Source: Candidatus Pacearchaeota archaeon (GTDB lineage Archaea > Nanobdellota > Nanobdellia > Pacearchaeales > JAHJTO01). From it: a stretch of 64,000 nt of DNA. The notes beneath the pieces are model-generated. The model searched no databases. It worked only from the letters and a program-made list of their open reading frames with translations, and was not told the DNA's origin. Both the position numbers and the translations under genes were made by a program. Numbering within the stretch: the stretch's first letter is position 1; each line of letters opens with the position of its first letter. The DNA lies in contig JAWCMS010000001.1 of the NCBI GenBank assembly GCA_038849525.1, positions 296,222-360,221 of the forward strand. Reading direction: 5' to 3'. This document shows positions 5,227 through 19,598 of the stretch, piece by piece.

Positions 5227-5967
5227 TTAATTATAAACCTCTTTTAATTCGCTAAGCATGAACTCTTTTATAGGGGATATTTCTTGTTTTTTATAAGAAT
5301 TTTTATTTAATAAATCTTTCTGCTCTCTTTTAATTATACTTTTTTCTGTTCTCTTTTTGGGCTTTATATTTTCAATATATTCATTAAAATTTTCAATAAA
5401 TCTATTAAGCCTGTTTTTCTTTGACTTTTTTTGTACAGACATAGAAATTTTTATATCCTCTTTTATTTTTTTTCCAATTAATATAATACTTTTGGCTCTT
5501 TTAAGCTTTTTCATCGCTAAAAGAATAAGAATTAATGCTATAAAAATAATAGTTGCAAGAGTCCAGGATATCCAAGCAAGATTAGGTAAAGGAGCAGCCT
5601 GAATCTTTATCTCTTCTAGTATGCATGTATTCTTAATACAAGAACCGATAATACAATCATCGTTTCTAAAACAGGATTTTTCAAGATTACATTTATCACA
5701 AATTTTTCCACCACAATCTACATCTGTTTCATCTTGATTTTGCACTCCGTCAAAACATAGTTGCCATATTTCTTTACAGTCTGCTGATTCAAAAGGTTTT
5801 TTGGTGTATGTTCCACATGAATTAATATCAAAGCAGCGCCTTTCTGTGATTCCATTAATGCAATGGCTCCAATCAAAGCATTGCCAGTTTTCTACACATT
5901 GGGCTGTAATTGAAGAAATAAGTATTAGAGAAAATGCAATTAAGCCGCTAATAAAAAATAATCTCAT
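5227..5967 (-). CDS. Secreted/membrane Cys-rich protein: signal peptide, TSP1-like module, CxDG..NQDETDVDCGG repeat, one TM helix, basic cytoplasmic tail
   Basis: Hydrophobic N-terminus ending SITA-Q, CVENWQCFDWSHC module, TM ISWTLATIIFIALILILL. Confidence 0.8.
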   Translation of the reverse strand: MRLFFISGLIAFSLILISSITAQCVENWQCFDWSHCINGITERRCFDINSCGTYTKKPFESADCKEIWQLCFDGVQNQDETDVDCGGKICDKCNLEKSCFRNDDCIIGSCIKNTCILEEIKIQAAPLPNLAWISWTLATIIFIALILILLAMKKLKRAKSIILIGKKIKEDIKISMSVQKKSKKNRLNRFIENFNEYIENIKPKKRTEKSIIKREQKDLLNKNSYKKQEISPIKEFMLSELKEVYN

Positions 5968-6101
5968 TTTTCTTCTTCTGCCATCATCTCTATGGCTTTT
6001 TCTATTATGTGAGATTTATTGCGATACTTTCTTTTTTTTAATATTTTATTTATTAATTCAATTGTTTTTTTGTCTACGGTAGCGGATATTCTTTCTTTCA
6101 T
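5964..6101 (-). CDS. 45-aa CopG/MetJ/Arc-type ribbon-helix-helix regulator (not in ORF track)
   Basis: Hand translation MKERISATVDKKTIELINKILKKRKYRNKSHIIEKAIEMMAEEEK; alternating beta strand RISATVD followed by two helices with Y.NKSHIIE.AI; its TGA overlaps the next ATG (ATGA). Confidence 0.85.
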   Translation of the reverse strand: MKERISATVDKKTIELINKILKKRKYRNKSHIIEKAIEMMAEEEK

Positions 6102-6976: not shown

Positions 6977-9900
6977 CTATAATAAAGTACTCGCTTCTGC
7001 TATTGTTTTGCTTTTTTCTTGAAGCTTAAGTTTTAAAGTCAGATTTTTTTCTTTTGCAAGCCTGTTTGAAAGCTCATATTTTTGTGCTATGAATAACTTG
7101 CCATTTTTCGCAATAGTGTAAGGGCCGAGATAGTCCATCGCAAGAATGTTTTTATCTTTATTTATGGTGAATTCAATGTTAACCTTCTTTTCATCCTGAT
7201 TTTCATTGTCATAGCCTATGAATATGTCTCTTAAGTTACTGCCCTTGTTTTTTGAAATTACGAAAAATTTGTCATATGTTATCTCTATAGGCATTATATA
7301 TTCCAGTATAATAGTGTTATTCTCAATTATCTCTATTTTTATTTTCTGCTCCTTTTCCTTGAAGGCGGGAGTCGTCATTTCTATAGGAATATTAAGCTCT
7401 TCTCCCGGCATAATTTTGTCATAGTGTAGAGGCTGAAGATTCCATGTAATACTTTTATAATCAACTTTATCTTTTATACTTATTCCCCCAATTACCTTTG
7501 ATATTCCCCATCCTATTTTAGGATATTGGTGTATTTCTTGCGGCATGCAATCTGGTTTAGGAGTCTCTATTTTTATATCAACATTTGTTAACTGTCTATT
7601 CAAATTGTTTTTAAGTATTATAACTGTGTTTACCTTTTCAAGAACAGGGAGTATCATTGCTTTTGGAGCGCTTAATGAAACAATTTCATTTCCTATTGTT
7701 GCATAACCTTCAAGAGGAGTTATAGGTTGGGGAGCAGGAAAAATCTCTACATATAATATGCATGGCTGTGATTCAGCAGGCTTTCCATCCAAAGTTGTGC
7801 AATTATTCAAATCTATGCAATTTCTTGTTTGTGTGTTATTAATACATTTACTCCATTCCGAACACTGCCAATTTGGAATGCATTTTTTTCTATCATACTT
7901 GATTTGAGTATATTCTAAAACAGTTAAAGTCACATTGTTTGAATATGCGATATCTTCAGAGTCATTTGCTGTAAATACGACATATTCTGTTCCTGTCCAG
8001 TCTGAAGGTTTGGAAAAGCTTACATTACCATTTGAATTTATAGAAACAGTTATATTTACTGTTCCAGTTGAAGCAAAAGTTAATAAGTCCCTATCAACAT
8101 CACTGAAATAATCATACAAATTAAATACATCTGTCTTGTTTTGGTTTGAGTACCATGATTGATCAGGAATCGTTCCTGAGAATTGAGGAGGGGAATTTGA
8201 AATTGTTCTTGTTGTGTTTACAGCATTTCCTGAGAAATTGTGCTCGTCTGTTGGAGTCTGTTCGCATGTTATAACATCATTTTTGATGCAGTTTAAAGTG
8301 CTGCAGTTGAATGTACTTGCTGTCTGTCCTGAAATCCAGACAGAATTCTTGAACCATCTATAGCTTGAAGTTACAGAATCAGAATCAGAATCCAAATAAG
8401 TTGCTGAGCAAGTCAAGACATCATTTATGTAAGCTGTTAAAGGAGTTATTGACGCAGTCAAAATCGAAGGCCTATGATTAACTTCAAAAATTCCTGACGA
8501 AGTGCCGGAGCACAATCCAGAGTCATCGCATATAGCAATGTAGTATACATTTGTTGTATTGTCAGATTCTAAGGCGGTATAATTGCAGCTGATAGGGTCA
8601 TCTGATGAGTTAATCTTTGAGCAGAATGTTTTTTCTGAGCAGCCAGCAGCTGTTATTGTTGATGTATTACAGACATACAAGGAGATATTTTCATTGGGCT
8701 GATCTAAATCTATCCAGTCCACTGTAAATGTTATATCTTCACCAACATTTTTTGGGGAAGTTGAATTTGAATTTGCTGAGTAACTTACAATGGAGGGATT
8801 ACTTCCACCTATTATTTCCGTAGTAGAGTTTACCGCATTTCCAAAATCATAGCCATCTTTAGGAGTAACTTCGCACATCCATACCTCATTATCATTTGTA
8901 TAAGTGTTTGAGATTGCTTTAGTAGTCAAGCTTGGCTGGAGTATGTAATCTTTAAACCATTTAAATGTTGTTTCTGATTCTGGATCATTGTCAGCATCTG
9001 AATATGTGTAGTTGCAGTATAAATCATCTGTTGTTATAGGGTTGTCTGGCTTTATGTCAACATTACTTATTGTAGGAGGAGTATTGGCAATCGTTGTATT
9101 CCAAATGTCTGTCTGATTATAATTGCCAACAGAGTCATTAAACCACCAATACCATCTTATTGTCTGACCGCGTGTTGCTGTTATTGTTTTTGTTTTAGTT
9201 ATTTCATTACTGTTTGTCCATAAACCAGATTCATTTACAAATCCTGTTCCATTGTCATATGAAAATATATAAGATCCGGGATTTGCATCGTTTAGAGTTA
9301 TATTGAAATAAACTATATCATTATATTTTGTTGATGCATTTGCATTTGTTTTATTGTTTGTCCAGTATGGTGCTATAGAATCTATAAAGAATGTTACATA
9401 AGCGGTGTTTATTGTACCTGCAGAATTGTTCGTGAAAGCATAAAGAGTATTTGTACCTTCATTAAAAGTTATATAAGTTTCTGTGATGTAAGTTTGATTT
9501 GTTCCATTCCAGTTGAACCACGTATATTCTCCACTTGACGAAATATTGACAAGCAAAATTTTGTTTGTGTAGGTTAAGTTCGAAGGAGATATTATATCGA
9601 TTGAAGGGACTGTTGTGTCAACTGAAAATGTTACTGTTGCATTGGCAATATTATTCACTGAGTCATTTGCATATGCTTTTATTGTATGGCTTCCATCTGC
9701 AAAATAATAATTTATTGCTTCAGAATAAGTAAGATTCGTTGTTCCATTATTCCACCAAATATAAATTCCATCAGATGAGATATTCACAAGTATTGTATTG
9801 TTATTATATGTTTTATTTATTGGCGAAATAAATAAGATTGAGGGCGGAATAGTGTCTTTAAAGAAAGTTACTGATGAATAATTTAAATTTCCAGCAGAAT

Positions 9901-12900
9901 CATTTGCATAAACAATCCAAGTATTACTTCCTTCTGCTGATGTCATACCAGTAATATTTTGGCCGCAAATTACTGTTGTATTTGTTACGCCTAAATTTGT
10001 TGAATACCAGCATGCTTGGAGATTTATATCTGAGACAGTATAATTTAGTTCATTTACATTATAATTGTAGGATATATTTTGAGGATAAGTTATCTGAATA
10101 TGTGGGGCTATAGAATCTATAAAAAATGTTACATTAGTAAAATTTGTATTCCCAGATGTATCATTAGTATAAGCATAAAGAGTATTTGTACCTTCATTAA
10201 AAGTTATATAAGTTTCTGTGATGTAAGTTTGATTTGTTCCATTCCAGTTGAACCATATTTTATCTACGGCAACATTATCAGTTACAGAAATATTAACGAG
10301 CAATATCTTGTTATTATAATTTGTGTTTATAGGACTTATAATATAAATTTCTGGGTAAATATTGTCTACAGAAATATTTGCTGTATCATTTGTTGTTAGG
10401 GTTTGAAAGCCTGACGCTGAGCATGTGACATTCCAGTCAAATATTCCTGGCGAAGAAAAGCTTCTATTGTATTCATAATATGTCGATGTTGTATTGTAAG
10501 TCATTGTGTCTGTTAAATCAAAAAATCTGACTGTGCAGTTTGCTCCTGTTATTGGTTGGCCATTATTTTTTCTTGAATAATTAACAAAGAATTTTGTCTG
10601 CTGATTTTTGTATTTTATTTTATCAGCATAAGGCATTCCTGTATCTGTTTCGTCCCATATTATCATCTGGGAATTTCCTTGCGTGACATAAGAAGTAAAA
10701 TGTGTCACATTAAAACTTAAAATTCCATTAATATTGTCATAATAATTTATTATACACTCTGTTTCTGAACATATTTCATTATCTTTATAAATCAAAGGCT
10801 CTGCATCCCATGTCAGGTTTCTCATTATTATTGTTGCCGATGAATTAAATGAAGAATGCATATTTTCAGTTAAGATTGTAACATTGTTATTTTCAAGAAT
10901 AACATTTAATGTAAAGTTTTGTCCAATAGCATTAATGCAGTTATGCCATATAATCATATCTGTTAGAGGATTGTCTAAAATTGCAGTTGAATTGCAAACA
11001 TTACTCAAGTCAGGGACAGCTGACCAGTTTGTTGTGTTTCCACTAAATATGGCTGGATTGTAAGAAGGAACTGCCGAAACATTTACTGTGAAGTACCTTG
11101 TTAAGCTTGCGTTTGTGTTTGTTGAAATGTCTGTAGCGCTGCAGCTCCAATTGTAGTTTCCATTCACAAGATTTAATGAAAAGGATGTTTGATTGTTTAA
11201 TCCAGAGACAGAGTTTGTTTGATTTAATATGCCATTCAAAATTAAGGATATACTCGCAAGTCCCTTATCATCAGCAGCAGAACAATTAAATTCAACAAAA
11301 CCATCGCCATCAACGGCATTATTATTAGGCGATAATAATGTTACTGAAAAAGGAGGCTCATCTTCATTTACATTTACATAATAGGTTTCATATGATGTTG
11401 AGTAGTTTTGTGTTTCTATATAGATACAGGTTATATTAAATAAGCCTGCTGAGCTGAATGTTGTCAAGTTGCCTATAGGCGAATTTCCAGAATTAATTAA
11501 GCTTTCATTGTTGTAGAGAGCAAGCATTCCTAAAGAGGGGGTAATTAGTGAACAATTAATGTTAATAGTCATGCCTTGGTTTATTGTCATGTTGTCTTTT
11601 GTGCTATTTATGGTTAAATTAACTTGAGATGGTGCTTTGTTTATAAATAAATAATAAGTCAATCCAGTTTCATTGTCAGTATAATTTGCATTTCCTGTTG
11701 AATTAACTTTGTAAGCGTAGGTTCCTGCCGCCAAGCTAATATTTATTCCACTTTCATTAGTAACATCATTTCCGTTTCTGTAAAGTTTATGCATTCCTGA
11801 AAGCGAATAAGCTGTTGCGTTAACTTGCTGAGGATATGTTATTGAGATGTTTTGATTTAATAATCCATTTAATCTTAAATTTACAACATCATTTGCTTTT
11901 GAAATATTTGCAAATCTTGATAAAGTAAATGCAGTATAATTCTGATTTTCTGGAACATACAATGTGAAATTATAATATCCTACTTCAAGATTTTGATATT
12001 GGTTGTTAAGATTTGTTATATCTTCACCATTTCTGTATAAAATGGCCGTTGATGAATTTGTGAATGATGCGTTAACTTGAGATGGATAAATTAAGTTAAT
12101 GTCTCCTACTGTTCCATTCAGTAGTAATGTTCCAGTATTTGCTCCTTTAGTCACATTTGCGAAAAGAGTCTTAGACATGCTTGTATAATTTTGATTTCCA
12201 GTAATATTATAGTCGAATCTGTAATAACCTACTCCTAATGTGTAATTTGCTCCATTTGTTATTAAAGTCCCATCTCTGTAAATGGCTAAAGTTCCACCAA
12301 CATTTGTTGCAGATGCGTTGATTTGCTGAGGATATTGCACAGTTAGGTTTTGAGTCAAACCATTCAAGTAATAATTCAAGGTTGGTGTTGCTTGGTTTAT
12401 TGTAAATGTCCAAGATGCTGAGGAATTGCCTTGATTTGAAGTGTCATTAGCCCAGCTTTTCCAGTAAAAAGTTCCTGCAGGTAGTGTTGCATTATAATGA
12501 TAAACACCGTTTGTAGCTGTTCCAGAAATTATGTTCATAGTGTAATTTATTGTATTGCCTGAATAATTGCTTTCTAAATAGACTTTATCAATTCCTATAT
12601 CATCTTGCCAAGTTATATTAAATAAGCTGAAAGTTGTTGGGGAGTAGGTTGTCACAATGCTTGTTTGATTATTGCTCCAGTAAGGATTGTTATCATAAAT
12701 CGAGATCGGAATAATTACATTTGACTGAACATTATCTTCCCATTGGATATAAGCATTTGTTGTTCTTGTATCTGTTACATTCAAGCATATTTGCACACCT
12801 ACCCTTTCACCTGGATATATGGTAGTCAAACTTCCTGATGGCAAGTTATAATTCCATAAAACAGCGGTTCCGGGAGAGCTCCCATCAGCGCATACATCAG

Positions 12901-15900
12901 CTGCTGATTGAGAAGTTAAGGCTATGTCATATCTGTCAGTGGAATTTAATTTAAATATATACGCTAGCAGTCTTACATCAACAGAAGTTGTGCTTCCACA
13001 ATAACCATAGACAGTAAAATTCCATGTTCCATTTACCATTACTGGAACAGTCCAATTAGGAGAAGTCCAGTTAAAATCAAAACATCTAAAGCCTAGAGAA
13101 CTCACGGAAACTCCGGGAGATGTAACTATGGAAGTATCATTTGTTGTTAATTTCAACTGCTTGTAGTTAGTAAATTGAGAATCGGACTCATTATGCATAT
13201 AATATCTTGTATTATTAACAATCCATTCCTGAACTCCCTGGATTTGTAATACGATATTCCTTTCTTCACTCATTCCAGTATTTCCAAATTCATCGGAACA
13301 TATTATTTTCCATGTATAATTTCCATTGTAGAGAAGATTTTCACTGAATGTCTGGTTTGTGTTTTTAGTTATCGTTTCGTCTTGGAAGCTTATTGCATAA
13401 CCTCCATTATTAGCTGAAAGAATAAAGAAACAGTCTTTTATTCCAGAATCATCTGAAACATTATAAGTAAATGTAGGGCTTAAAGTGTTTAGTTCAATAT
13501 ATCCATTTGTAGGAGAAACTAAAGAGATGACAGGGTTAATGTCATCTTCAAGAGTCTTTGCTGTATTTGTTACATTAGTATTATTTATATTTCCTACATT
13601 GTCTTTTGTCCAAATTTTTATTGTATGCTCTGAATTTACTGATAATCCTGTTGCATTATAGTAATTATTTGAAGTGTTAGCGACATTAACATTGTCAATA
13701 AAAATAATATTCGAATTGAAATCAACATCAGCAGGATTTGTCCAGTTCCAGTAAATCCATGTATAACCTGAAGATTGATTATTAAGATTTGTTACTGAAG
13801 ATGGAGGGGTTGTGTCAGTACTGCCTGCTGGCGCGAATGCGGCTGCAACATGAACAAGCCTGTTTGCTGACTGACTCCATCCTATAGTTGTTAATCCTGC
13901 TGTTGAAACCTCCTTTGTCGAGCCTGCTCCTTGCGATGTTGAGTTCCCTGAATCCCATCTTTCTATCTGTCCTGAATTTGCTGTAAATCCTCCAAGATTT
14001 CCTGAAACAACAACATCGATAATCCAAGAATCAGATGTCAGGGTTGTTATGCTTGTGTTAATTGATGTGCAGCCTGTGCAGTATTTTGTTGTGTAGTTTT
14101 CAGGGGCCTGTTGTTTTGCGTTGTATATTGAAATTCCTCCTGCATTACTTTCAGTCACATTTCCTGCATAATTAACTTTAATGCTCGCTGTTCCGACTGG
14201 AGGGTTTAGCAGATACCATAAACTTGCGCATGCATCTGCTCCTGAATCGTCAAAATCATAGCCTGCAATTTTAGTTAATGAAATATTGTTATATGTGACA
14301 GAAGTTGCTCTGCAATTAGCTGCAGCACTGCCTGATGCTGATGATTCAGCTGTTGCCCCTACAATCAAAATTCTATTGCTATTGTTTCCTATAGTATGAG
14401 AAAAAGTAAGGTTTCCTGCTCCTTTTGCAGAGCTGCTTGAATCGAATTGTATTTTATCTTCACCGTATAATTCGTAAGTTATGTTTAGATAAGGTCTGTT
14501 TCCTGTGCTGTGATGATTTTCTCTGTCTTCTATATCAAGCCAAGGCCCTGGATCCCAGTTTCCAAATCCTAACGTTTCATAGTATAGATAATATGCAGTA
14601 TTGGCAGGATAATCTGCATCGCAAATCCTTACAGTTGAAAAATTATTTCCTAATGCTAAGTCTGTTGAAATTACATTTTTTATGTCTATACAACCCCATC
14701 CAGGTACGTTGATATCTGACCAAGTTTCTGATGTCGTTTCATTTGTTAAGGGCATTTCATTATATTCTTCAGGAGTTATAGATTCTGTCCATGTTTGATT
14801 ATCGACACGCCAGAAAATTGCGTCTGTGTCAAATGTTCCGTCTTTTTGTACAAAGTAAACACACATTAATGCACTTGTTATGCTTGCTGTTTTTGGTATT
14901 TTTGAGATATCCCATCTTATCTGCATTGATTCATTATCTTCCCAAGAACCAGCTATCGCTAAAATGTCAGCAACATTGTAGCTATAATTTAGCAGTTCTG
15001 AATAAGCAGGGTCTTCCAAAGTTAAAGTAAAAGTGTATTCTTGTCCAGGAGTTATATCCATTATCTTTATCCATTCCCCATAACAAACTTGTTGAGAAAA
15101 ATTCCAGTCTTTGCATTTATACAATTCAGAGCCTTGAGCAGTGACTGTTATATTTGCAAATGTAAATTTAGGCATTATTGTAGGGTCAATTGCATAAGAC
15201 TGTATGAAGCCTGAAATAGAAACATTTGTGTCAATATCAATTAAATTGTCTATTGAATCATTTATGTTAATTTCATTAATTATGATTTCTTTTATTTCAC
15301 CTTCTTCGGGCTTTATTTTTATATTATACTTTCCTTTTTGGACTTTTTCTCTTTTGGCTTTTCCTGAAATTTCTTTTTTTACTTCCTTGCTTACTGGCTT
15401 CTCGAATTCAATTGTAACATCTATCGGATTTCCATTAGCATCTTTAACTTCAGCATTAACATCATATTCAGGAATTTCTCCTATTCCTATAACTTGTGAA
15501 TGCTTTCCGATCTTTATTTCAAAATATTTTGAAGGATTCCAGTTGTTTATTGTCAATGAAATATTTTCGTTTGCGGAAGATTCATTTTTGCTTAAGAAAT
15601 AGTCCAAATAATCTTCGCTGATTATTGCTATCGGCTGGATTTCATTAGATTCGTGGTGGAATGATACATTGAGAATTCCAGACTCGTTGTCATAATTTAT
15701 TGAATCTATAACTGCATTTATTTTAGAGTCTTCTTCTATTATCTCATATTCTACTATAAAGTTTGTTTCTTCGGTGATATTTGTTATGTTAATTGTGGTC
15801 AAATTTTCTATTTGGATTATTTCTTCTGTAAGATTCTCTTTTATTATGTTTTCTTCAGGAATCTCCTCTTTTTTCAAAGTGTAAATTATTTTCTGAAGCT

Positions 15901-16597
15901 TTAGCTCTGTTCCAGAATCAGTTTCAATTATAATTTTGTATTTTGTTTCGTTTAATTCAACAGAACATGTTTCAATGCAGACATCATCAAATTTTATTTT
16001 TTCTTTTTCTTCTTCTGTAATGTTTTCTTCTGCAGTTGCATTTTCTTCAGGCTGTTCTGGCTGCTCTTTTTGAGCTTCTTCTGTAGGGGCTTCTGGAGTT
16101 TCTGAAACTTTTTCTGGTTGTGATTCTTCTTTTGTTTTCTTTTCATTTGCTTTTTCAGCTTCTTTGATTTCCTTTTCAGCTTCTTCCTGCTCTTCTTCTG
16201 TAGGAGCTATTGAAAGTCCTGTTAAGATACTTGCTAAACTTTCTCCTTGGCTGCTTTCATAAATTAATTTCTTTTCTTGAGAAGTTTCAATGTAAATTTT
16301 CGCATTTCCATTTCCTGATAATTCTCCTGATACTCTTAATGAAGTTATTGTTCCAGGGTTTTCTGGAGTCCATTGATATTCGATTGATTTGTCTGTCTTA
16401 ATGTTTAAAACATCAATAAAAGTGTCTTTGCTTGTAACATAGCCAGTTATGTAAGGCCTCATTAAAAAGAATAGTATTACTGTCAAAGCTAATGTAAAAC
16501 CGATTAGCAGAATGCTTTGAGGAATTTTTATTTTTTCTTTTTTTGTTAATTGCTCTGCTAAGTAAATTTCATTCTCTTTTTTTTGTTCTTCATTCAT
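6977..16597 (-). CDS. 3206-aa giant cell-surface protein: N-terminal TM anchor, DNRLRE-like, FN3-like and many Ig-like modules, HF-T motif module, TSP1-like module
   Basis: Uninterrupted 9.6-kb ORF; TM at about aa 28-47; IRWDISKIP..ASITSA; DTTPPSSVTNL FN3 start; repeated D..P.I.I.SP.N.TY units; dense N-x-S/T sequons; no C-terminal TM. Confidence 0.9.
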   Translation of the reverse strand: MNEEQKKENEIYLAEQLTKKEKIKIPQSILLIGFTLALTVILFFLMRPYITGYVTSKDTFIDVLNIKTDKSIEYQWTPENPGTITSLRVSGELSGNGNAKIYIETSQEKKLIYESSQGESLASILTGLSIAPTEEEQEEAEKEIKEAEKANEKKTKEESQPEKVSETPEAPTEEAQKEQPEQPEENATAEENITEEEKEKIKFDDVCIETCSVELNETKYKIIIETDSGTELKLQKIIYTLKKEEIPEENIIKENLTEEIIQIENLTTINITNITEETNFIVEYEIIEEDSKINAVIDSINYDNESGILNVSFHHESNEIQPIAIISEDYLDYFLSKNESSANENISLTINNWNPSKYFEIKIGKHSQVIGIGEIPEYDVNAEVKDANGNPIDVTIEFEKPVSKEVKKEISGKAKREKVQKGKYNIKIKPEEGEIKEIIINEININDSIDNLIDIDTNVSISGFIQSYAIDPTIMPKFTFANITVTAQGSELYKCKDWNFSQQVCYGEWIKIMDITPGQEYTFTLTLEDPAYSELLNYSYNVADILAIAGSWEDNESMQIRWDISKIPKTASITSALMCVYFVQKDGTFDTDAIFWRVDNQTWTESITPEEYNEMPLTNETTSETWSDINVPGWGCIDIKNVISTDLALGNNFSTVRICDADYPANTAYYLYYETLGFGNWDPGPWLDIEDRENHHSTGNRPYLNITYELYGEDKIQFDSSSSAKGAGNLTFSHTIGNNSNRILIVGATAESSASGSAAANCRATSVTYNNISLTKIAGYDFDDSGADACASLWYLLNPPVGTASIKVNYAGNVTESNAGGISIYNAKQQAPENYTTKYCTGCTSINTSITTLTSDSWIIDVVVSGNLGGFTANSGQIERWDSGNSTSQGAGSTKEVSTAGLTTIGWSQSANRLVHVAAAFAPAGSTDTTPPSSVTNLNNQSSGYTWIYWNWTNPADVDFNSNIIFIDNVNVANTSNNYYNATGLSVNSEHTIKIWTKDNVGNINNTNVTNTAKTLEDDINPVISLVSPTNGYIELNTLSPTFTYNVSDDSGIKDCFFILSANNGGYAISFQDETITKNTNQTFSENLLYNGNYTWKIICSDEFGNTGMSEERNIVLQIQGVQEWIVNNTRYYMHNESDSQFTNYKQLKLTTNDTSIVTSPGVSVSSLGFRCFDFNWTSPNWTVPVMVNGTWNFTVYGYCGSTTSVDVRLLAYIFKLNSTDRYDIALTSQSAADVCADGSSPGTAVLWNYNLPSGSLTTIYPGERVGVQICLNVTDTRTTNAYIQWEDNVQSNVIIPISIYDNNPYWSNNQTSIVTTYSPTTFSLFNITWQDDIGIDKVYLESNYSGNTINYTMNIISGTATNGVYHYNATLPAGTFYWKSWANDTSNQGNSSASWTFTINQATPTLNYYLNGLTQNLTVQYPQQINASATNVGGTLAIYRDGTLITNGANYTLGVGYYRFDYNITGNQNYTSMSKTLFANVTKGANTGTLLLNGTVGDINLIYPSQVNASFTNSSTAILYRNGEDITNLNNQYQNLEVGYYNFTLYVPENQNYTAFTLSRFANISKANDVVNLRLNGLLNQNISITYPQQVNATAYSLSGMHKLYRNGNDVTNESGINISLAAGTYAYKVNSTGNANYTDNETGLTYYLFINKAPSQVNLTINSTKDNMTINQGMTININCSLITPSLGMLALYNNESLINSGNSPIGNLTTFSSAGLFNITCIYIETQNYSTSYETYYVNVNEDEPPFSVTLLSPNNNAVDGDGFVEFNCSAADDKGLASISLILNGILNQTNSVSGLNNQTSFSLNLVNGNYNWSCSATDISTNTNASLTRYFTVNVSAVPSYNPAIFSGNTTNWSAVPDLSNVCNSTAILDNPLTDMIIWHNCINAIGQNFTLNVILENNNVTILTENMHSSFNSSATIIMRNLTWDAEPLIYKDNEICSETECIINYYDNINGILSFNVTHFTSYVTQGNSQMIIWDETDTGMPYADKIKYKNQQTKFFVNYSRKNNGQPITGANCTVRFFDLTDTMTYNTTSTYYEYNRSFSSPGIFDWNVTCSASGFQTLTTNDTANISVDNIYPEIYIISPINTNYNNKILLVNISVTDNVAVDKIWFNWNGTNQTYITETYITFNEGTNTLYAYTNDTSGNTNFTNVTFFIDSIAPHIQITYPQNISYNYNVNELNYTVSDINLQACWYSTNLGVTNTTVICGQNITGMTSAEGSNTWIVYANDSAGNLNYSSVTFFKDTIPPSILFISPINKTYNNNTILVNISSDGIYIWWNNGTTNLTYSEAINYYFADGSHTIKAYANDSVNNIANATVTFSVDTTVPSIDIISPSNLTYTNKILLVNISSSGEYTWFNWNGTNQTYITETYITFNEGTNTLYAFTNNSAGTINTAYVTFFIDSIAPYWTNNKTNANASTKYNDIVYFNITLNDANPGSYIFSYDNGTGFVNESGLWTNSNEITKTKTITATRGQTIRWYWWFNDSVGNYNQTDIWNTTIANTPPTISNVDIKPDNPITTDDLYCNYTYSDADNDPESETTFKWFKDYILQPSLTTKAISNTYTNDNEVWMCEVTPKDGYDFGNAVNSTTEIIGGSNPSIVSYSANSNSTSPKNVGEDITFTVDWIDLDQPNENISLYVCNTSTITAAGCSEKTFCSKINSSDDPISCNYTALESDNTTNVYYIAICDDSGLCSGTSSGIFEVNHRPSILTASITPLTAYINDVLTCSATYLDSDSDSVTSSYRWFKNSVWISGQTASTFNCSTLNCIKNDVITCEQTPTDEHNFSGNAVNTTRTISNSPPQFSGTIPDQSWYSNQNKTDVFNLYDYFSDVDRDLLTFASTGTVNITVSINSNGNVSFSKPSDWTGTEYVVFTANDSEDIAYSNNVTLTVLEYTQIKYDRKKCIPNWQCSEWSKCINNTQTRNCIDLNNCTTLDGKPAESQPCILYVEIFPAPQPITPLEGYATIGNEIVSLSAPKAMILPVLEKVNTVIILKNNLNRQLTNVDIKIETPKPDCMPQEIHQYPKIGWGISKVIGGISIKDKVDYKSITWNLQPLHYDKIMPGEELNIPIEMTTPAFKEKEQKIKIEIIENNTIILEYIMPIEITYDKFFVISKNKGSNLRDIFIGYDNENQDEKKVNIEFTINKDKNILAMDYLGPYTIAKNGKLFIAQKYELSNRLAKEKNLTLKLKLQEKSKTIAEASTLL
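9436..9520. repeat. 85-bp perfect direct repeat, copy 1, inside the giant gene
   Basis: Identical to 10171-10255; encodes WFNWNGTNQTYITETYITFNEGTNTLYA. Confidence 0.95.
10171..10255. repeat. 85-bp perfect direct repeat, copy 2
   Basis: Identical to 9436-9520 (735 bp apart). Confidence 0.95.
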
Positions 16598-16615: not shown

Positions 16616-18856
16616 TTATCTCATTAAACAGTAAATGACTGTTATTATAACGATTATTATAATAATATTCACTATATTCATTAATAACAATTTTAGCTTA
16701 GATTTGTTTATATCTTCCATATAACTTACATTTTTATTTATTGGAGTTTCATGATAATACTCATGAAGATGCGTGAGCATGTATGACTTAATAATCCGAG
16801 ATTTTATTTTGTATTCTATCTTTGTTATTATCATTAATACTCCTATAAATCCAACTAGGAGACATATCAATACTGATCCATATTTTGATTTTCCTTCTTT
16901 TTCATGAAATGACACATCTATAACTTTTCCTGATAGTCTTCCAATTCCACCTCTTTTTATGTGTGATCTCTCATAGTCTATCTCTAACTCACTTCGATTT
17001 TGGATATTATTATAATATAGAGTTTTTACACAACTTTTAATTTCAATGGGTTTATTTATTGTTGTTCCGCATCTGTTTAAATCAGTGCATACTCTTACTT
17101 GGATTCCTTCTATTGAGCATTCTGTCCATTCACTACACTGCCATTTTTCAATACATGATATCAATACTTGATAGGAGAGTGAGGTTGTATTCGTCATGTT
17201 TAAATCTTGATCAGTTTTTTTCCTTACTTTCCTACTTTCGCTACTGCTTTCGTTGTTGCAAGAACCACAATCGATCAAGCATGCCGAACATGTTTCATCT
17301 GTATTACAAATTCCATCTCCACAATAAGCATAAATACATGAAACATTTTGTCTTTCGAAAAATGTTTTATTAGAAACTTCTTCACAATTATTGGAATCGT
17401 ATTGAATCATATTTCTTTCTTGTATATAATAATCTCCTGTAAGACATGCAGTAATATTATACCATTCTGTCCATGATGTGTTTATTAAATTAGGAGTACA
17501 ATAATCGCACGCTTCTATTTGTCTGTATTCAATAAAGGTTGTGTTAGAAGCGCATCCGTAAGAGTCATATTGAGTAAGATTTCTTGATTGATTCATTTTA
17601 TCATTCGGAAGACAAGAGATATTTGTCCACTCGCTCCAAGAAGTGTTAAGGTAAGAAGGCCCTACTAACTGATATTCATAATAAGTCACATTCATGAATC
17701 CGCAGTTATTTGAATCATATTCAACTTTAAAGCGAGATTGGTTCATCTGATCTCTTGAGCATGTTAAATTCTGCCAGTCGCTCCATGTCGTGTTTATAAT
17801 ATTTGCAGTGCATGCATTTACTATGGCTGTTCTTAAATCAGAAGTGTAAATAATTTCATCGAGAATATCTGTCGCGTAAACTTTGTATGTGTAAGTTCCG
17901 CTTGTTAAATTTGTAACATTATAATACCAATTGCTTCCTGTGCTGTTTAACATTGTATAATTTGTATTACCTCCGTTCATCCATTCTAATTTTGCAGACA
18001 ATACGTTTCCATTAGTCAATGAAATATTCACATAAATAGAACTTCCATTAACAGTGCTTGCATCATTTGGAGTCGGGCTGACAAAAGTTATATTTAAAGG
18101 AATTGTATAATTTATTATAAGCTTAGGCCGTATTGTACTATTTGCGTTGTCGCTTGAAGCGAACTGTTTCAAATTATTTCCAGGCTTACTTGGAGGAATT
18201 AAAATCAAGCCGTAATTTGGATATGTTCCATTGTGCCATTCTTTTATTAAATTAGTAATATCCCATTCTTTCCATCCTAACGAAGTGTTTATTGTAGTTT
18301 TTGCGTAACTAGTGTTTGCGTAATCTCCTCCCGCAGAGCTCCATAAATTTATTCCATCTCTTGAATTCCACGTTGCTCCTGATTCTGTCCATGAATTTGT
18401 AATTCTTTTAAGCTCTAATTCGAATTCTGTTCCTGTGCCAGAAGTTTGATATAATGCTAATACAGCTGACTGAATATTTGCATTTGAAGGAATGCTTGAA
18501 ATGTTAAATTCCAAAATTCCTCTTTCTATTTTTGAAGATTCTGAATCAATATCGATAGTTGTAGATGAGCCGTAATTTGTATTTGCGGAATATGCCTTCA
18601 TATAACTATCTTTACCTTCGCTGCCTGGTTGTAGTGTTAAACTCAGCGCAGTTGTTAGTGGTATAATCAATAAAATTATTGAAAATAAATAGAAAAAAAT
18701 TAATATTTTCTCTTTTTCTTTTGTGTACTTTAAAAAATTTTTAATAAAAATCTCGATTTTTTTTGAAAGTACAATAGCATTTTTTTCACAATAATCTTGA
18801 AACTCTGAATATACTTTTGAATCTAAGCTGATAGTTACCTTTTTTTTATTATTCAT
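16616..18856 (-). CDS. RHH-like N-terminus fused to signal peptide, DNRLRE/CBM96-like domain, Ig-like domain, three WSxW TSP1-like repeats, Cys-rich modules and C-terminal TM helices
   Basis: KKKVTISLDSKVYSEFQDYCEKNAIVLSKKIEIFI (RHH pattern); ILIFFYLFSIILLIIPLTTA; KDSY..NTNYG..RGILEFNISSIP..WTESGATWN..WDIT..NYGL..RPKLII. Confidence 0.85.
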   Translation of the reverse strand: MNNKKKVTISLDSKVYSEFQDYCEKNAIVLSKKIEIFIKNFLKYTKEKEKILIFFYLFSIILLIIPLTTALSLTLQPGSEGKDSYMKAYSANTNYGSSTTIDIDSESSKIERGILEFNISSIPSNANIQSAVLALYQTSGTGTEFELELKRITNSWTESGATWNSRDGINLWSSAGGDYANTSYAKTTINTSLGWKEWDITNLIKEWHNGTYPNYGLILIPPSKPGNNLKQFASSDNANSTIRPKLIINYTIPLNITFVSPTPNDASTVNGSSIYVNISLTNGNVLSAKLEWMNGGNTNYTMLNSTGSNWYYNVTNLTSGTYTYKVYATDILDEIIYTSDLRTAIVNACTANIINTTWSDWQNLTCSRDQMNQSRFKVEYDSNNCGFMNVTYYEYQLVGPSYLNTSWSEWTNISCLPNDKMNQSRNLTQYDSYGCASNTTFIEYRQIEACDYCTPNLINTSWTEWYNITACLTGDYYIQERNMIQYDSNNCEEVSNKTFFERQNVSCIYAYCGDGICNTDETCSACLIDCGSCNNESSSESRKVRKKTDQDLNMTNTTSLSYQVLISCIEKWQCSEWTECSIEGIQVRVCTDLNRCGTTINKPIEIKSCVKTLYYNNIQNRSELEIDYERSHIKRGGIGRLSGKVIDVSFHEKEGKSKYGSVLICLLVGFIGVLMIITKIEYKIKSRIIKSYMLTHLHEYYHETPINKNVSYMEDINKSKLKLLLMNIVNIIIIIVIITVIYCLMR

Positions 18857-18878: not shown

Positions 18879-18947
18879 TTTATAAATGTATTTATTTATA
18901 AGTCTTTATACTTATATATACTTCTTTATACTTATAAAATTTATAAA
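18879..18947. promoter_or_regulatory. Divergent promoter: TTTATAAA boxes at 18879-18886 (minus gene) and 18940-18947 (plus gene) enclosing a phased TATACTT repeat array
   Basis: Boxes lie at -30..-23 and -29..-22 from the respective ATGs; TATACTT at 18907, 18917 and 18927. Confidence 0.75.
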
Positions 18948-18968: not shown

Positions 18969-19598
18969 ATGAAATGTCTAAAAAACGCATGGCCTCAATA
19001 TTGGTACGAAAAAGCCATAAAAATAAAGATTCCAAATTGGGTTAAATCTAAAGAAATAGATGTATATAAAGAAAAAGATATTAATAATAAATCTATCTAC
19101 ATCGTGGCTAAAAGTATAGAAGAACTTCTTAATGAACTTGGCTTAAATTTCAATGTTAAGATTAAAGGTAATTTTGAATTTCCTTTTAAAATGCGAGAAA
19201 TTGTCTTTAATGATTTATATGACTTAAAAAAAATTTTTACTCTTAATTCTGCAGTTTTTGTTTTATTTAAAAAATATTTTGGATTTTATACAGATTCATC
19301 GAAAATGATAAAGAAGACTGTTGGAATGAGCTCTTTTTATAGAGGAATTAGTCTTGTACAAGAACTTGACAATAAAGAGAATAATATAGGATTGAATGTT
19401 GTCATAAAACATGAACTTGCACATCTTCTTGGTTTATCGTCGCATCATTTAAATAATAAATGTCTTATGCTACCCCAATTTAATTATAAATTACTTCAAT
19501 TTAATTATAATAAGCTTTGTTACGATTGCTATTCTGCATTAATTGCGTTTTGGAGCGGAATAGAAGAAAAAACAAATAAAAAATATTTAAAATCTTAA
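18969..19598 (+). CDS. Archaemetzincin-like zinc metalloprotease, no signal peptide
   Basis: HELAHLLGLSSHH.x4.CLM...LCYDC resembles the HExxHxxGxxH-C-x4-C-x-M...CxxC archaemetzincin signature. Confidence 0.75.
   Translation: MKCLKNAWPQYWYEKAIKIKIPNWVKSKEIDVYKEKDINNKSIYIVAKSIEELLNELGLNFNVKIKGNFEFPFKMREIVFNDLYDLKKIFTLNSAVFVLFKKYFGFYTDSSKMIKKTVGMSSFYRGISLVQELDNKENNIGLNVVIKHELAHLLGLSSHHLNNKCLMLPQFNYKLLQFNYNKLCYDCYSALIAFWSGIEEKTNKKYLKS

What the first reader, a model, noticed from the sequence alone, without database searches (positions are those of the whole stretch)
16616..18856. Transcription-factor-in-a-signal-peptide: RHH domain fused ahead of the export signal of a glycan-binding surface protein
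Seen: aa 1-43 show an RHH pattern (KKVTISLD strand, two helices), followed by a basic linker, a hydrophobic helix ending in a signal-peptidase-like site (LTTA/LS), then DNRLRE/CBM96-like, TSP1-like repeats and C-terminal TM helices. There is no internal Met between the RHH and the hydrophobic helix, and a TATA box at -30..-23 supports the first ATG. Established: RHH proteins (CopG, Arc, MetJ) are cytoplasmic dimeric repressors of their own promoters. Inference: a previously undescribed feedback circuit in which export and cleavage of the surface protein leaves a membrane-tethered or protease-released RHH that regulates the locus.
Basis: partly seen in the sequence, partly recalled or inferred. 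Interest (0 to 1): 0.8.

Follow-up and report, generated by a model that had tools for sequence, protein, structure and literature searches.

The report
DNA-binding domain fused to export signal
A tiny hot-spring archaeon makes a cell-surface sugar-binding protein whose export signal is preceded, in the same polypeptide, by a small CopG-type DNA-binding repressor domain; the same join recurs in about twenty related species and sits behind a conserved array of binding sites, so production of the surface protein is probably wired directly to control of its own gene.

Summary
ORF 16616-18856(-), 746 aa, starts with a 45-aa ribbon-helix-helix (RHH) module. The evidence is profile hits to RHH families only, an AF2 model with pLDDT 94, and Foldseek top hits to CopG, SvtR and Arc. 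The module runs without stop or alternative start into a Sec-type signal peptide. The mature part has CBM96, Cys/Trp-rich repeats and C-terminal TM helices. Contigs from a second sample show the same junction.

The fusion is not a one-off. It occurs in 23 of the 150 best cluster representatives. Among 67 species loci, all labelled DPANN apart from a few labelled Methanosarcinales, 19 are fused. In 47 of the others the same RHH is a separate 44-144-aa gene. In most of these (31 of 45 with a downstream ORF) its stop overlaps or abuts the next ORF, usually a signal-peptide protein.

A homologue of the mature part (P0161) aligns from its Met1 to window residue 42. The window protein is therefore an RHH plus a complete ordinary preprotein.

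Upstream of fused and split genes lies a conserved box, ATAyTTCTATrTA, in 10-bp-phased arrays abutting the TATA box. At least two sites occur in 50/68 loci against 2/301 controls. The window has four, at 18888-18931, the only cluster in 64 kb.

Best reading: an autoregulatory RHH fused to the signal peptide. Whether cleavage tethers or releases it is untested. I found no paper on it.

The parts
16616..18856 (-). Whole ORF, 746 aa: RHH, linker, signal peptide, CBM96, Ig-like region, Cys/Trp repeats, two C-terminal TM helices
18713..18856 (-). RHH module (aa 1-48): beta-strand KKVTISLD (aa 5-12), helix A 13-25, helix B 30-47. Family-conserved residues are K6, V7, T8, S10, Y16, C23 (invariant), S31, K32 and E35.
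18707..18730 (-). Basic linker KYTKEKEK (aa 43-50). It serves as the n-region of the signal peptide. Met1 of homologue P0161 aligns with aa 42.
18647..18706 (-). Signal-peptide h/c-region ILIFFYLFSIILLIIPLTTA (aa 51-70). Predicted signal peptidase I site is TTA|LS, between aa 70 and 71.
18110..18613 (-). CBM96 / disaggregatase-related (DNRLRE-type) carbohydrate-binding domain, aa 82-249
   Evidence: E 5e-21; E 3e-15
17342..17812 (-). Three Cys/Trp-rich repeats (C..N(T)SWS(D/E)W.N..C...NQSR..YD..C), aa 349-505. No Pfam model matches them.
17030..17155 (-). Six-Cys module CIEKWQCSEWTEC...C, aa 568-609
16817..16882 (-). C-terminal TM helix 1 (aa 659-680)
16619..16696 (-). C-terminal TM helix 2 (aa 721-746)
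18888..18931 (.). Array of four operator-like boxes at an exact 10-bp period. 18918-18931 is ATACTTCTTTATAC (16.0 bits). 18908-18921 is ATACTTATATATAC (14.7 bits). 18898-18911 scores 10.5 bits and 18888-18901 scores 11.3 bits. This is the only cluster of such sites in the 64-kb window.
18879..18886 (-). TATA box TTTATAAA at -30..-23 of the RHH-fusion gene. The proximal box abuts it.
18940..18947 (+). TATA box TTTATAAA at -29..-22 of the divergent gene 18969-19598 (M54/M10-like Zn-metalloprotease). It lies on the other side of the box array.
6977..16597 (-). 3206-aa giant surface protein gene, 18 nt downstream on the same strand. It is a probable second gene of the same transcription unit.

Best explanation
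The first 45 residues are a CopG/Arc-type ribbon-helix-helix DNA-binding domain. It belongs to a DPANN-specific family whose normal form is a free 44-60-aa protein. That protein is encoded directly in front of a gene for a secreted surface protein, usually overlapping or abutting its start. In this genome, and in about twenty other sampled species, the stop codon between the two genes is gone. The RHH is then made as the extreme N-terminus of the preprotein, joined through a short basic linker to an otherwise ordinary Sec signal peptide.

Shown: the fold and family membership; the fused and split forms; the homology of the hydrophobic segment to a real signal peptide; equal conservation of the RHH in fused and split forms; and a conserved 10-bp-phased box array that abuts the TATA/BRE region.

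Inferred: RHH dimers bind cooperatively to the ATAyTTCTATrTA boxes at 18888-18931. They thereby control, most likely repress, the promoter of their own operon (the 746-aa CBM96 protein and probably the 3206-aa giant protein). They may also control the divergent metalloprotease gene.

Inferred: the RHH stays on the cytoplasmic side, as the positive-inside rule predicts. Signal peptidase cuts after TTA70 and frees the mature protein, which remains anchored by its C-terminal helices. A stub of about 70 aa (RHH plus signal peptide) is left in the membrane. One regulator molecule is thus made for each surface-protein molecule.

Whether the stub works while tethered, after release, or is simply degraded is not known.
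For: RHH identity. Tandem family members fold like the double-RHH proteins TraY and AvtR, with the beta strands formed.

Signal peptide: all 23 fused representatives show a basic patch, an uncharged run of about 15-21 residues, and then a short c-region, in most of them with small residues at -3/-1. The -3/-1 rule is met in 19/20 fused proteins against 38/45 bona fide N-terminal signal peptides of the split partners. P0161 aligns from Met1 to residue 42, with matching cleavage sites.

Recurrence: 246 family members. Of the 67 GTDB species loci, 19 are fused, giving proteins of 1036-1707 aa where complete. In 47 of the others the RHH is a separate gene, and in 31 of 45 with a downstream ORF that ORF overlaps or abuts the RHH stop; most begin with a signal peptide.

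Constraint: the module is 62% identical among fused proteins, against 28% for the signal segment and 23% for the first 120 mature residues. K6, T8, S10, C23, S31, K32 and E35 are as conserved in fused as in split forms. The window and P0002 share 56% identity in the module and nothing else.

Operator: unbiased k-mer enrichment, for example TAGAAATA in 30/68 against 8/301 (p 3e-18) and CTATGTA in 15/68 against 0/301. With the PWM, at least two sites occur in 50/68 against 2/301. Cross-validated, the figures are 26/34 and 25/34 against 2-4/301. Spacing peaks at 10, 14 and 20 bp. Fused loci score 16/21 and split loci 35/47. The proximal site abuts the TATA box in 13 loci. The window has a single four-site cluster, against 0.05 expected.

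Integrity: contigs from two samples agree.
Against: - No experiment shows DNA binding, cleavage or topology.
- The window's own sequence scores below Pfam's cut-off for every RHH family.
- The box array could belong to another factor that co-occurs with these promoters.
- Part of the enrichment (AGAAATA next to TTTATA) may be BRE/TATA of strong promoters rather than operator.
- The boxes lie upstream of and abutting the TATA box, a position compatible with activation as well as repression.
- The linker between helix B and the membrane segment is only about 8 residues. RHH helix B ends point apart in known dimers (my own knowledge), so a tethered dimer may be strained.
- The window's cleavage motif (TTA|LS) is less canonical than the AxA motif of most relatives.
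- I could not search the rest of the genome for a free paralogue that might serve the operator, because the genome tools were shut.
Confidence: 0.6

Rival explanations
1. Uncleaved signal anchor. The protein is a ToxR/CadC-like one-component membrane regulator, with a cytoplasmic RHH, one membrane helix and an extracellular sensing domain (CBM96). Ligand or host-glycan binding outside changes RHH dimerisation and DNA binding inside.
For: The topology is the same as in membrane-bound transcription factors. The window's TTA|LS site is weak. The h-regions of fused proteins are long and Phe-rich (F 0.27 against 0.14 in split partners). DPANN cells are tiny, so DNA is always close to the membrane (my own knowledge).
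Against: The -3/-1 site is kept in 19/20 fused proteins. The segment is homologous to a true N-terminal signal peptide with an aligned cleavage site. The same RHH-signal module heads unrelated ectodomains (CBM96, Laminin_G_3 and the FSDGFESG-type domain), which argues against a dedicated sensor. The proteins already have C-terminal anchors.
Confidence: 0.18
2. Tolerated fusion without function in the fused state. Loss of the stop codon in an overlapping gene pair joined the two ORFs. The RHH is a harmless cytoplasmic extension, and regulation, if any, is done by a free paralogue elsewhere in the genome.
For: Split pairs often overlap by 1-20 nt, so a small indel can fuse them. Several fused genes keep a Met just before the h-region, which could be a relic or an internal start. 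None of the 102 homologues of the mature part has the RHH.
Against: The fused state is inherited across a large part of the family tree: 8 changes against 18 in shuffles, 0/500. The fused modules keep the same residues as free ones, while the rest of the protein diverges beyond recognition. Operator arrays are retained in 16/21 fused loci. No second family member occurs in the 64-kb window or within 5 kb in 19 fused loci. The window gene has no internal start.
Confidence: 0.12
3. Artefact. A sequencing or assembly error, for instance in the A/T homopolymers near the junction, hides a stop or frameshift, and the locus is really the split form.
For: The junction DNA holds runs of A and T. The split form is the commoner state.
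Against: Contigs from run X1 (0 differences over the whole stretch) and from a second sample X2 (18400-18761, no gaps) agree. No ATG, GTG or TTG in any position could start a separate signal-peptide protein before the h-region. The same in-frame join occurs in 19 species loci and 23 cluster representatives.
Confidence: 0.02

Closest known systems
CopG (pMV158), Arc/Mnt (P22), SvtR (SIRV1) and aCcr1 (Sulfolobales; PMC9976892): minimal 45-60-aa RHH transcription factors
   Same: Same fold and size. There is a beta-strand with alternating polar residues (K-x-T-x-S) and a conserved Ser/Lys at the start of helix B. The gene sits at the head of the operon it controls, with repeated phased sites at its own promoter.
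   Different: The known proteins are free cytoplasmic proteins. Here the domain is the N-terminus of a secretory preprotein. The family has an invariant Cys in helix A, and it falls below the Pfam cut-offs of the named families.
TraY (F plasmid) and AvtR (archaeal lipothrixvirus): natural tandem RHH proteins
   Same: Tandem members of this family (P0003, P0004) are predicted to fold the same way, with prob 1.00 and TM 0.63-0.69 to TraY chains of 9f0x-9f12 and a match to 4hv0 AvtR.
   Different: The window protein has a single module and must pair with a second chain.
ToxR, TcpP and CadC: membrane-bound one-component transcription regulators
   Same: An N-terminal cytoplasmic DNA-binding domain, a single membrane-spanning segment and an extracytoplasmic domain.
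   Different: Those use winged-helix OmpR-type domains, long linkers and true uncleaved anchors with dedicated sensor domains. Here there is an RHH, a linker of about 8 residues, a signal-peptidase motif and interchangeable adhesin-like ectodomains.
Long viral signal peptides with a function after targeting: MMTV Rem/Env SP (my own knowledge) and the 13-kDa HERV-K(HML-2) Env SP, released into the cytosol (PMC2649029)
   Same: A folded, functional, nucleic-acid-related module lies in the n-region of a cleavable signal peptide. One copy is made per exported protein.
   Different: Those are eukaryotic ER systems, and their modules act on RNA export or in the nucleolus. No prokaryotic example with a DNA-binding domain was found in the literature searches.
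RsiV/sigmaV and other regulated-intramembrane-proteolysis circuits (my own knowledge)
   Same: Signal peptidase followed by an intramembrane protease acts on a type II segment to change gene expression.
   Different: There an anti-sigma factor is destroyed. Here the transcription factor itself would be the stub. No protease partner has been identified.

Membership tests
Ribbon-helix-helix (MetJ/Arc/CopG) superfamily | Beta-alpha-alpha fold of about 45 residues | tested here: met
   AF2 pLDDT 94 with helices 13-25 and 30-47. Foldseek top hits are CopG 2cpg/1b01/1ea4, CopA-SO 6iya and SvtR 2kel, with TM 0.65-0.81.
Ribbon-helix-helix (MetJ/Arc/CopG) superfamily | Sequence-profile match to curated RHH families | tested here: inconclusive
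   The window sequence alone matches DUF6364 at E 0.005, 17.5 bits against a cut-off of 27.3. At family level the test is met: 57/74 members hit DUF6364, and others hit RepB-RCR_reg, ParG, CcdA, RHH_1/3/5/9 and RelB. The profile also hits SvtR and ParG in the PDB.
Ribbon-helix-helix (MetJ/Arc/CopG) superfamily | Dimer with an antiparallel two-stranded ribbon | tested here: inconclusive
   Only single chains could be folded. Tandem family members form both strands (E5-13, E61-69) and match TraY and AvtR. No dimer model of the window protein was possible.
Ribbon-helix-helix (MetJ/Arc/CopG) superfamily | Sequence-specific binding to repeated operator sites | not testable with these tools
   Indirect only: the conserved 10-bp-phased box array at family promoters.
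Sec-type (class 1) cleavable signal peptide | Positive n-region, an uncharged h-region of about 12-20 residues, and small residues at -3/-1 | tested here: met
   The window has KYTKEKEK, then a 20-residue run, then TTA|LS. Of fused proteins, 19/20 have a -3/-1 site, like 38/45 split partners. This was a heuristic test; SignalP was not available.
Sec-type (class 1) cleavable signal peptide | Homology to an N-terminal signal peptide of a relative | tested here: met
   P0161 residues 1-217 align with window residues 42-251 (E 4e-42). VSA|DTLTLQP lies opposite TTA|LSLTLQP.
Sec-type (class 1) cleavable signal peptide | Actual cleavage by signal peptidase I | not testable with these tools
   This needs N-terminal sequencing or proteomics.
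Class 3 (prepilin-type) signal peptide | [KR]-[GAS] cleavage motif directly before the h-region | tested here: not met
   The window has KEK|ILIFF. Only one of the 23 fused representatives (KKA|LILF) has a fitting motif.
CBM96 / DNRLRE carbohydrate-binding module | Match to PF24517 above the curated cut-off | tested here: met
   75.6 bits against a cut-off of 26, aa 82-249.
Thrombospondin type-1 repeat | Match to a TSP1 family model | tested here: not met
   No TSP_1 hit at E <= 10 in Pfam. The repeats are a separate Cys/Trp-rich module of DPANN surface proteins.
ToxR-like membrane-bound transcription factors | Uncleaved anchor and a dedicated periplasmic sensor domain | tested here: inconclusive
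   A cleavage motif is present and the ectodomains are interchangeable. Cleavage itself was not tested.

The most novel reading that the evidence does not exclude
A transcription factor is delivered as part of a cleavable prokaryotic signal peptide. Every surface-protein molecule that passes through Sec and is cut by signal peptidase leaves one RHH-signal-peptide stub. Clearance of the stub by an SppA-, S2P- or presenilin-type protease, or its dimerisation in the membrane, determines how much active repressor reaches the phased operator. The cell would then count successfully exported molecules rather than translated ones. This would be a prokaryotic counterpart of the MMTV Rem and HERV-K signal-peptide factors.
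Probability: 0.12. Interest if true: 0.85.

Novelty: new variant of a known kind. Interest (0 to 1): 0.62.

Why it matters
DPANN archaea live attached to hosts and devote much of their small genomes to huge, fast-evolving surface proteins. How these genes are controlled is unknown.

This finding gives three things. The first is a concrete candidate regulator family, its DNA box, and a testable operator at 18888-18931. The second is a natural series of split and fused forms that links a repressor physically to the secretion signal of the protein it controls. The third is a promoter-RHH-signal module that is conserved while the passenger ectodomain is exchanged.

If the fused RHH is active only after signal-peptide processing, it would be the first prokaryotic case of a signal peptide with a gene-regulatory function after targeting. 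It would also be a very economical one-to-one feedback device. Even the conservative reading is useful for annotation, because these N-termini are currently unannotated in the source records listed for the homologues.

Tried and rejected
1. tblastn of the module against the window found no second family member. An HMM over six-frame translations of the window and all loci found second copies in only 3 loci and none in the window.
2. The RHH at 5964-6101 noted by another reader is real (RHH_1, E 6e-6), but it belongs to a different family and has no box array.
3. Prepilin-type cleavage, which would release the RHH directly, was rejected because the motif is absent.
4. The divergent metalloprotease as a conserved partner or releasing protease was rejected. 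No HExxH protein lies upstream in the other fused loci.
5. Homologues of the mature part were checked for RHH N-termini. The count was 0/102, and the upstream genes of P0161 and P0216 are not RHH.
6. Helix-breaking residues in fused against split h-regions, as a hint of intramembrane proteolysis, showed no difference (0.14 against 0.16). Only a Phe excess appeared.
7. Single-box matches with up to 2 mismatches are not enriched in the window as a whole (68 against 54 expected). Only the cluster is significant.
8. The first attempt at search for related loci with the broad alignment failed because no conserved stretch was present. A narrower alignment worked.
9. The genome search and the fetch from genomes were shut. 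I could not search the genome for free paralogues, signal peptidase or SppA/S2P.
10. The one RNA run of the study holds none of the stretch's words, so there are no expression data.
11. Five literature searches found no description of the fusion.
Full report
**1. What is in the sequence**

The minus strand holds an uninterrupted 746-codon ORF at 16616-18856. Its product begins MNNKKKVTISLDSKVYSEFQDYCEKNAIVLSKKIEIFIKNFLKYTKEKEK. This is followed by ILIFFYLFSIILLIIPLTTA|LSLTLQPGSEGKD.

Pfam finds CBM96 (aa 82-249, E 5e-21) and the overlapping disaggregatase repeat. It also finds weak Ig-like hits at 254-334 and, for the N-terminus, only a sub-threshold hit to DUF6364. Two hydrophobic helices close the protein, at aa 659-680 and 721-746.

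TTTATAAA lies at -30..-23 of the first ATG. Between codon 1 and Leu63, which is already inside the hydrophobic stretch, there is no in-frame ATG, GTG or TTG. A product with a working signal sequence must therefore carry the N-terminal module.

Contigs assembled independently from three runs of a hot-spring metagenome study match the window. X1 matches over the whole 601 bases. X2, from another sample, matches over 18400-18761 with no gap. A hidden stop or frameshift is therefore very unlikely.

**2. The N-terminal module is a ribbon-helix-helix domain**

A search restricted to residues 1-80 found P0002. This is a 1071-aa Laminin_G_3 protein that shares 56% identity over the first 59 residues and nothing else.

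A profile of the two N-termini was scored against 1.84 billion representative proteins. It gave 246 hits at E <= 1e-3, most of them 44-110 aa long.

A 74-member alignment (A2) gave the following results:
- Member-wise hits fell essentially only in RHH-clan Pfam families. These were DUF6364 (57/74), RepB-RCR_reg (29), ParG (12), then CcdA, RHH_1, RHH_3, RHH_5, RHH_9, RelB and BrnA.
- As a profile, it hit the solved RHH proteins SvtR (2kel, E 7e-4) and ParG (1p94, E 8e-3).
- AlphaFold2 on this alignment gave pLDDT 94, with helices at 13-25 and 30-47 and an extended N-terminal segment.
- Foldseek against the PDB returned CopG, CopA-SO, SvtR, the RHH of MatP, Arc, PutA, AmrZ, ParD and NikR.

Four family members carry two modules in tandem. 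Their model forms both beta strands and matches the natural double-RHH proteins TraY (F relaxosome, prob 1.00) and AvtR.

The strand KVTLS has polar residues (K6, T8, S10) alternating with hydrophobic ones. S31 and K32 sit at the start of helix B. In known RHH proteins these are the positions that read bases and grip the phosphate backbone (my own knowledge of CopG, Arc and MetJ).

**3. The hydrophobic segment is a real signal peptide**

All 23 fused representatives show the same order. The module is followed by a basic patch and an uncharged run of about 15-21 residues, then a short c-region. In most of them it ends in small -3/-1 residues such as VFA|D, ASA|A, VNA|A, GSA|V or ISA|A.

By a simple rule-based measure the fused segments look like the N-terminal signal peptides of the unfused partner proteins:

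| Measure | Fused | Unfused partners |
|---|---|---|
| -3/-1 site present | 19/20 | 38/45 |
| Median n-region charge | +3 | +2 |

.

The strongest point comes from homologues of the mature part. None of 102 carries the module. The CBM96 protein P0161 aligns from its own Met1 to window residue 42 (E 4e-42). Its signal peptide MLHHKQTDALLVVLAFALAVLLPSIVSA|DTLTLQP lies opposite LKYTKEKEKILIFFYLFSIILLIIPLTTA|LSLTLQP.

The window protein is therefore an RHH placed in front of a complete, ordinary preprotein. A prepilin-type site is absent.

**4. The fusion is one state of a conserved two-part unit**

A scan of one genome per prokaryotic species found 67 loci. Apart from a few records labelled Methanosarcinales, all are in Woesearchaeota, Pacearchaeota or Nanoarchaeota MAGs.
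- In 19 loci the module is fused to a large protein. These are 1036-1707 aa where complete, usually with a C-terminal anchor.
- In 47 of the others it is a separate 44-144-aa gene.
- Of the 45 with a downstream ORF of at least 100 aa, 31 have that ORF overlapping or directly abutting the RHH stop. Most of these ORFs begin with a classical signal peptide and run to as much as 1,660 aa.
- Some partner proteins belong to the same ectodomain families as the fused ones.

On a tree of the 68 modules, which is poorly resolved because it has only 42 columns, the fused state is strongly clustered. It needs 8 changes against 18 in shuffles (0 of 500 as low), and 20 of 21 fused sequences fall in one half. 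It is therefore inherited, and a single origin is not excluded.

Among fused proteins the module is 62% identical. The signal segment is 28% identical and the first 120 mature residues 23%. K6, V7, T8, S10, Y16, C23, S31, K32 and E35 are as conserved in fused as in free forms. This is what one expects if the fused domain still does the job of the free one.

**5. A conserved operator-like array**

I compared the 150 nt upstream of the 68 family genes with 301 other upstream regions from the same loci.
- Unbiased k-mer counts single out TAGAAATA (30/68 against 8/301, p 3e-18), GAAGTATA (26 against 7) and CTATGTA (15 against 0).
- These assemble into a 13-14-nt box, ATAyTTCTATrTA.
- At least two boxes of 10 bits or more occur in 50/68 targets and 2/301 controls.
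- With the matrix trained on one half and tested on the other, the figures are 26/34 and 25/34 against 2-4/301.
- Neighbouring boxes are most often 10 bp apart (40 pairs), then 14 (19 pairs) and 20 (12 pairs). Both orientations occur.
- Fused loci (16/21) and split loci (35/47) carry arrays alike.
- A TATA-like box lies at a median of -29 from the start codon. In 13 loci the proximal box ends exactly at it, covering the BRE position.

The window has four boxes with an exact 10-bp period at 18888-18931. They score 11.3, 10.5, 14.7 and 16.0 bits. They fill the space between the TATA box of the fusion gene (18879-18886) and that of the divergent M54/M10-like metalloprotease gene (18940-18947).

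This is the only cluster of boxes in 64 kb, with 0.05 clusters of at least 3 expected. It also holds the only perfect match to the consensus. Single degenerate matches are not enriched (68 against 54).

Phased tandem sites are typical of cooperative RHH binding, as in CopG, omega, ParR and MetJ (my own knowledge). That this RHH binds these boxes is an inference from co-occurrence. It has not been demonstrated.

**6. Mechanism**

Most likely (0.6), the RHH is the autoregulator of a surface-protein operon. That operon comprises the 746-aa CBM96 protein and, 18 nt downstream, the 3206-aa giant protein. Here the RHH is made as the n-region of the signal peptide.

The positive-inside rule keeps the RHH in the cytoplasm. 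Signal peptidase would cut at TTA|LS, leaving an RHH-signal-peptide stub of about 70 aa in type II orientation. This gives one regulator per surface-protein molecule, the same ratio that translational coupling approximates in the split form.

Three questions remain open:
- Is the segment cut at all? The rival is a ToxR-like anchor (0.18).
- Is the stub active while tethered, only after release, or merely degraded?
- Is the sign of regulation negative? The boxes lie upstream of and against BRE/TATA.

A purely passive fusion (0.12) fits poorly with the conservation data. An artefact (0.02) is excluded for practical purposes.

**7. Comparison with what is known, and novelty**

The domain is an ordinary member of the RHH superfamily. 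It works like CopG, SvtR or aCcr1.

The new element is its position inside a secretory presequence, together with the conserved promoter-RHH-signal module that heads interchangeable ectodomains.

The closest architectural parallels are ToxR-type membrane regulators, which have a different domain and are not cleaved. Another parallel is the long signal peptides of MMTV Rem and HERV-K Env, which act after release (PMC2649029). A third is RIP circuits such as RsiV.

Five full-text searches found no paper describing RHH-signal-peptide fusions. One review of archaeal dark matter mentions RHH antitoxins and signal peptides only separately.

Earlier AI notes of this scan report the same fusion and its split form in other genomes, including two loci that are in my own set. 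They also priced the cleavage-coupled reading of a bacterial analogue low. I used them as leads only.

I rate the finding a new variant of a known kind, with interest 0.62. The export-counting reading has a probability of about 0.12 and would deserve about 0.85 if true.

**8. Limits**

- The genome-wide tools were shut.
- No dimer or DNA complex could be modelled.
- No SignalP-type predictor was available.
- The only RNA run of the study does not hold the locus.

Noticed in passing
window 5964-6101 (-) and 5227-5967 (-): There is a second, unrelated RHH gene (45 aa, Pfam RHH_1, E 6e-6, above the cut-off). Its TGA overlaps the ATG of a 246-aa signal-peptide protein. This is a split regulator/secreted-protein pair from a different RHH family in the same genome, with no ATAyTTCTATrTA boxes upstream.
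   Followed up: partly
L014, L041, L063, L068, P0146; L025:4713-9194: A variant carries a domain of about 95 aa in front of the RHH. The motif pattern ...PDF(I/L)M...VELE... suggests a PD-(D/E)xK nuclease fold. In L025 this two-domain cytoplasmic part runs on into a membrane segment and a 1493-aa surface protein. Pfam gives no significant hit.
   Followed up: partly
P0003, P0004, P0094, P0103: These family members have two RHH modules in one chain. The AF2 model (pLDDT 83) matches TraY of the F relaxosome and AvtR.
   Followed up: yes
window 18969-19598 (+): The divergent neighbour is a small Zn-metalloprotease-like protein with weak M54 archaemetzincin and M10 hits. Its TATA box lies on the far side of the box array, so it may be co-regulated. 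It is not conserved next to the other fused loci.
   Followed up: partly
window 6977-16597 (-): A 3206-aa surface protein gene starts 18 nt after the stop of the fusion gene on the same strand, probably in the same transcript. It has its own N-terminal pre-TM extension of about 28 aa but no RHH.
   Followed up: no
window 17342-17812 and 17030-17155 (-): Cys/Trp-rich repeats (NTSWSEW..C...NQSR..YD..C) match no Pfam model. They recur in about 100 DPANN surface proteins with many different other domains. They are the main source of similarity among homologues of the mature part.
   Followed up: partly
RHH family alignment A2, column of window residue C23: A Cys in helix A is the only invariant residue of the family (74/74). 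This is unusual for RHH proteins. A redox or metal role, or mere core packing, was not examined.
   Followed up: no
fused loci L003, L010, L016, L026, L032, L034, L040, L050, L054, L065: Most fused genes are preceded on the same strand by a 460-540-aa ORF. In the two loci whose upstream DNA reaches its end (L003, L016), that ORF ends in a ...(C)RVDNV... motif like the one that follows the signal peptide in many fused proteins. The loci thus look like rows of related surface-protein genes.
   Followed up: no
signal segments of fused vs split partners: The h-regions of fused proteins are about twice as rich in Phe (0.27 against 0.14). The tails after helix B are Lys-rich in fused forms but Glu-rich in free forms, which fits adaptation to the positive-inside rule.
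   Followed up: partly
L035, L039, L047: In three loci two separate RHH genes of the family lie in tandem in front of the secreted-protein gene.
   Followed up: no
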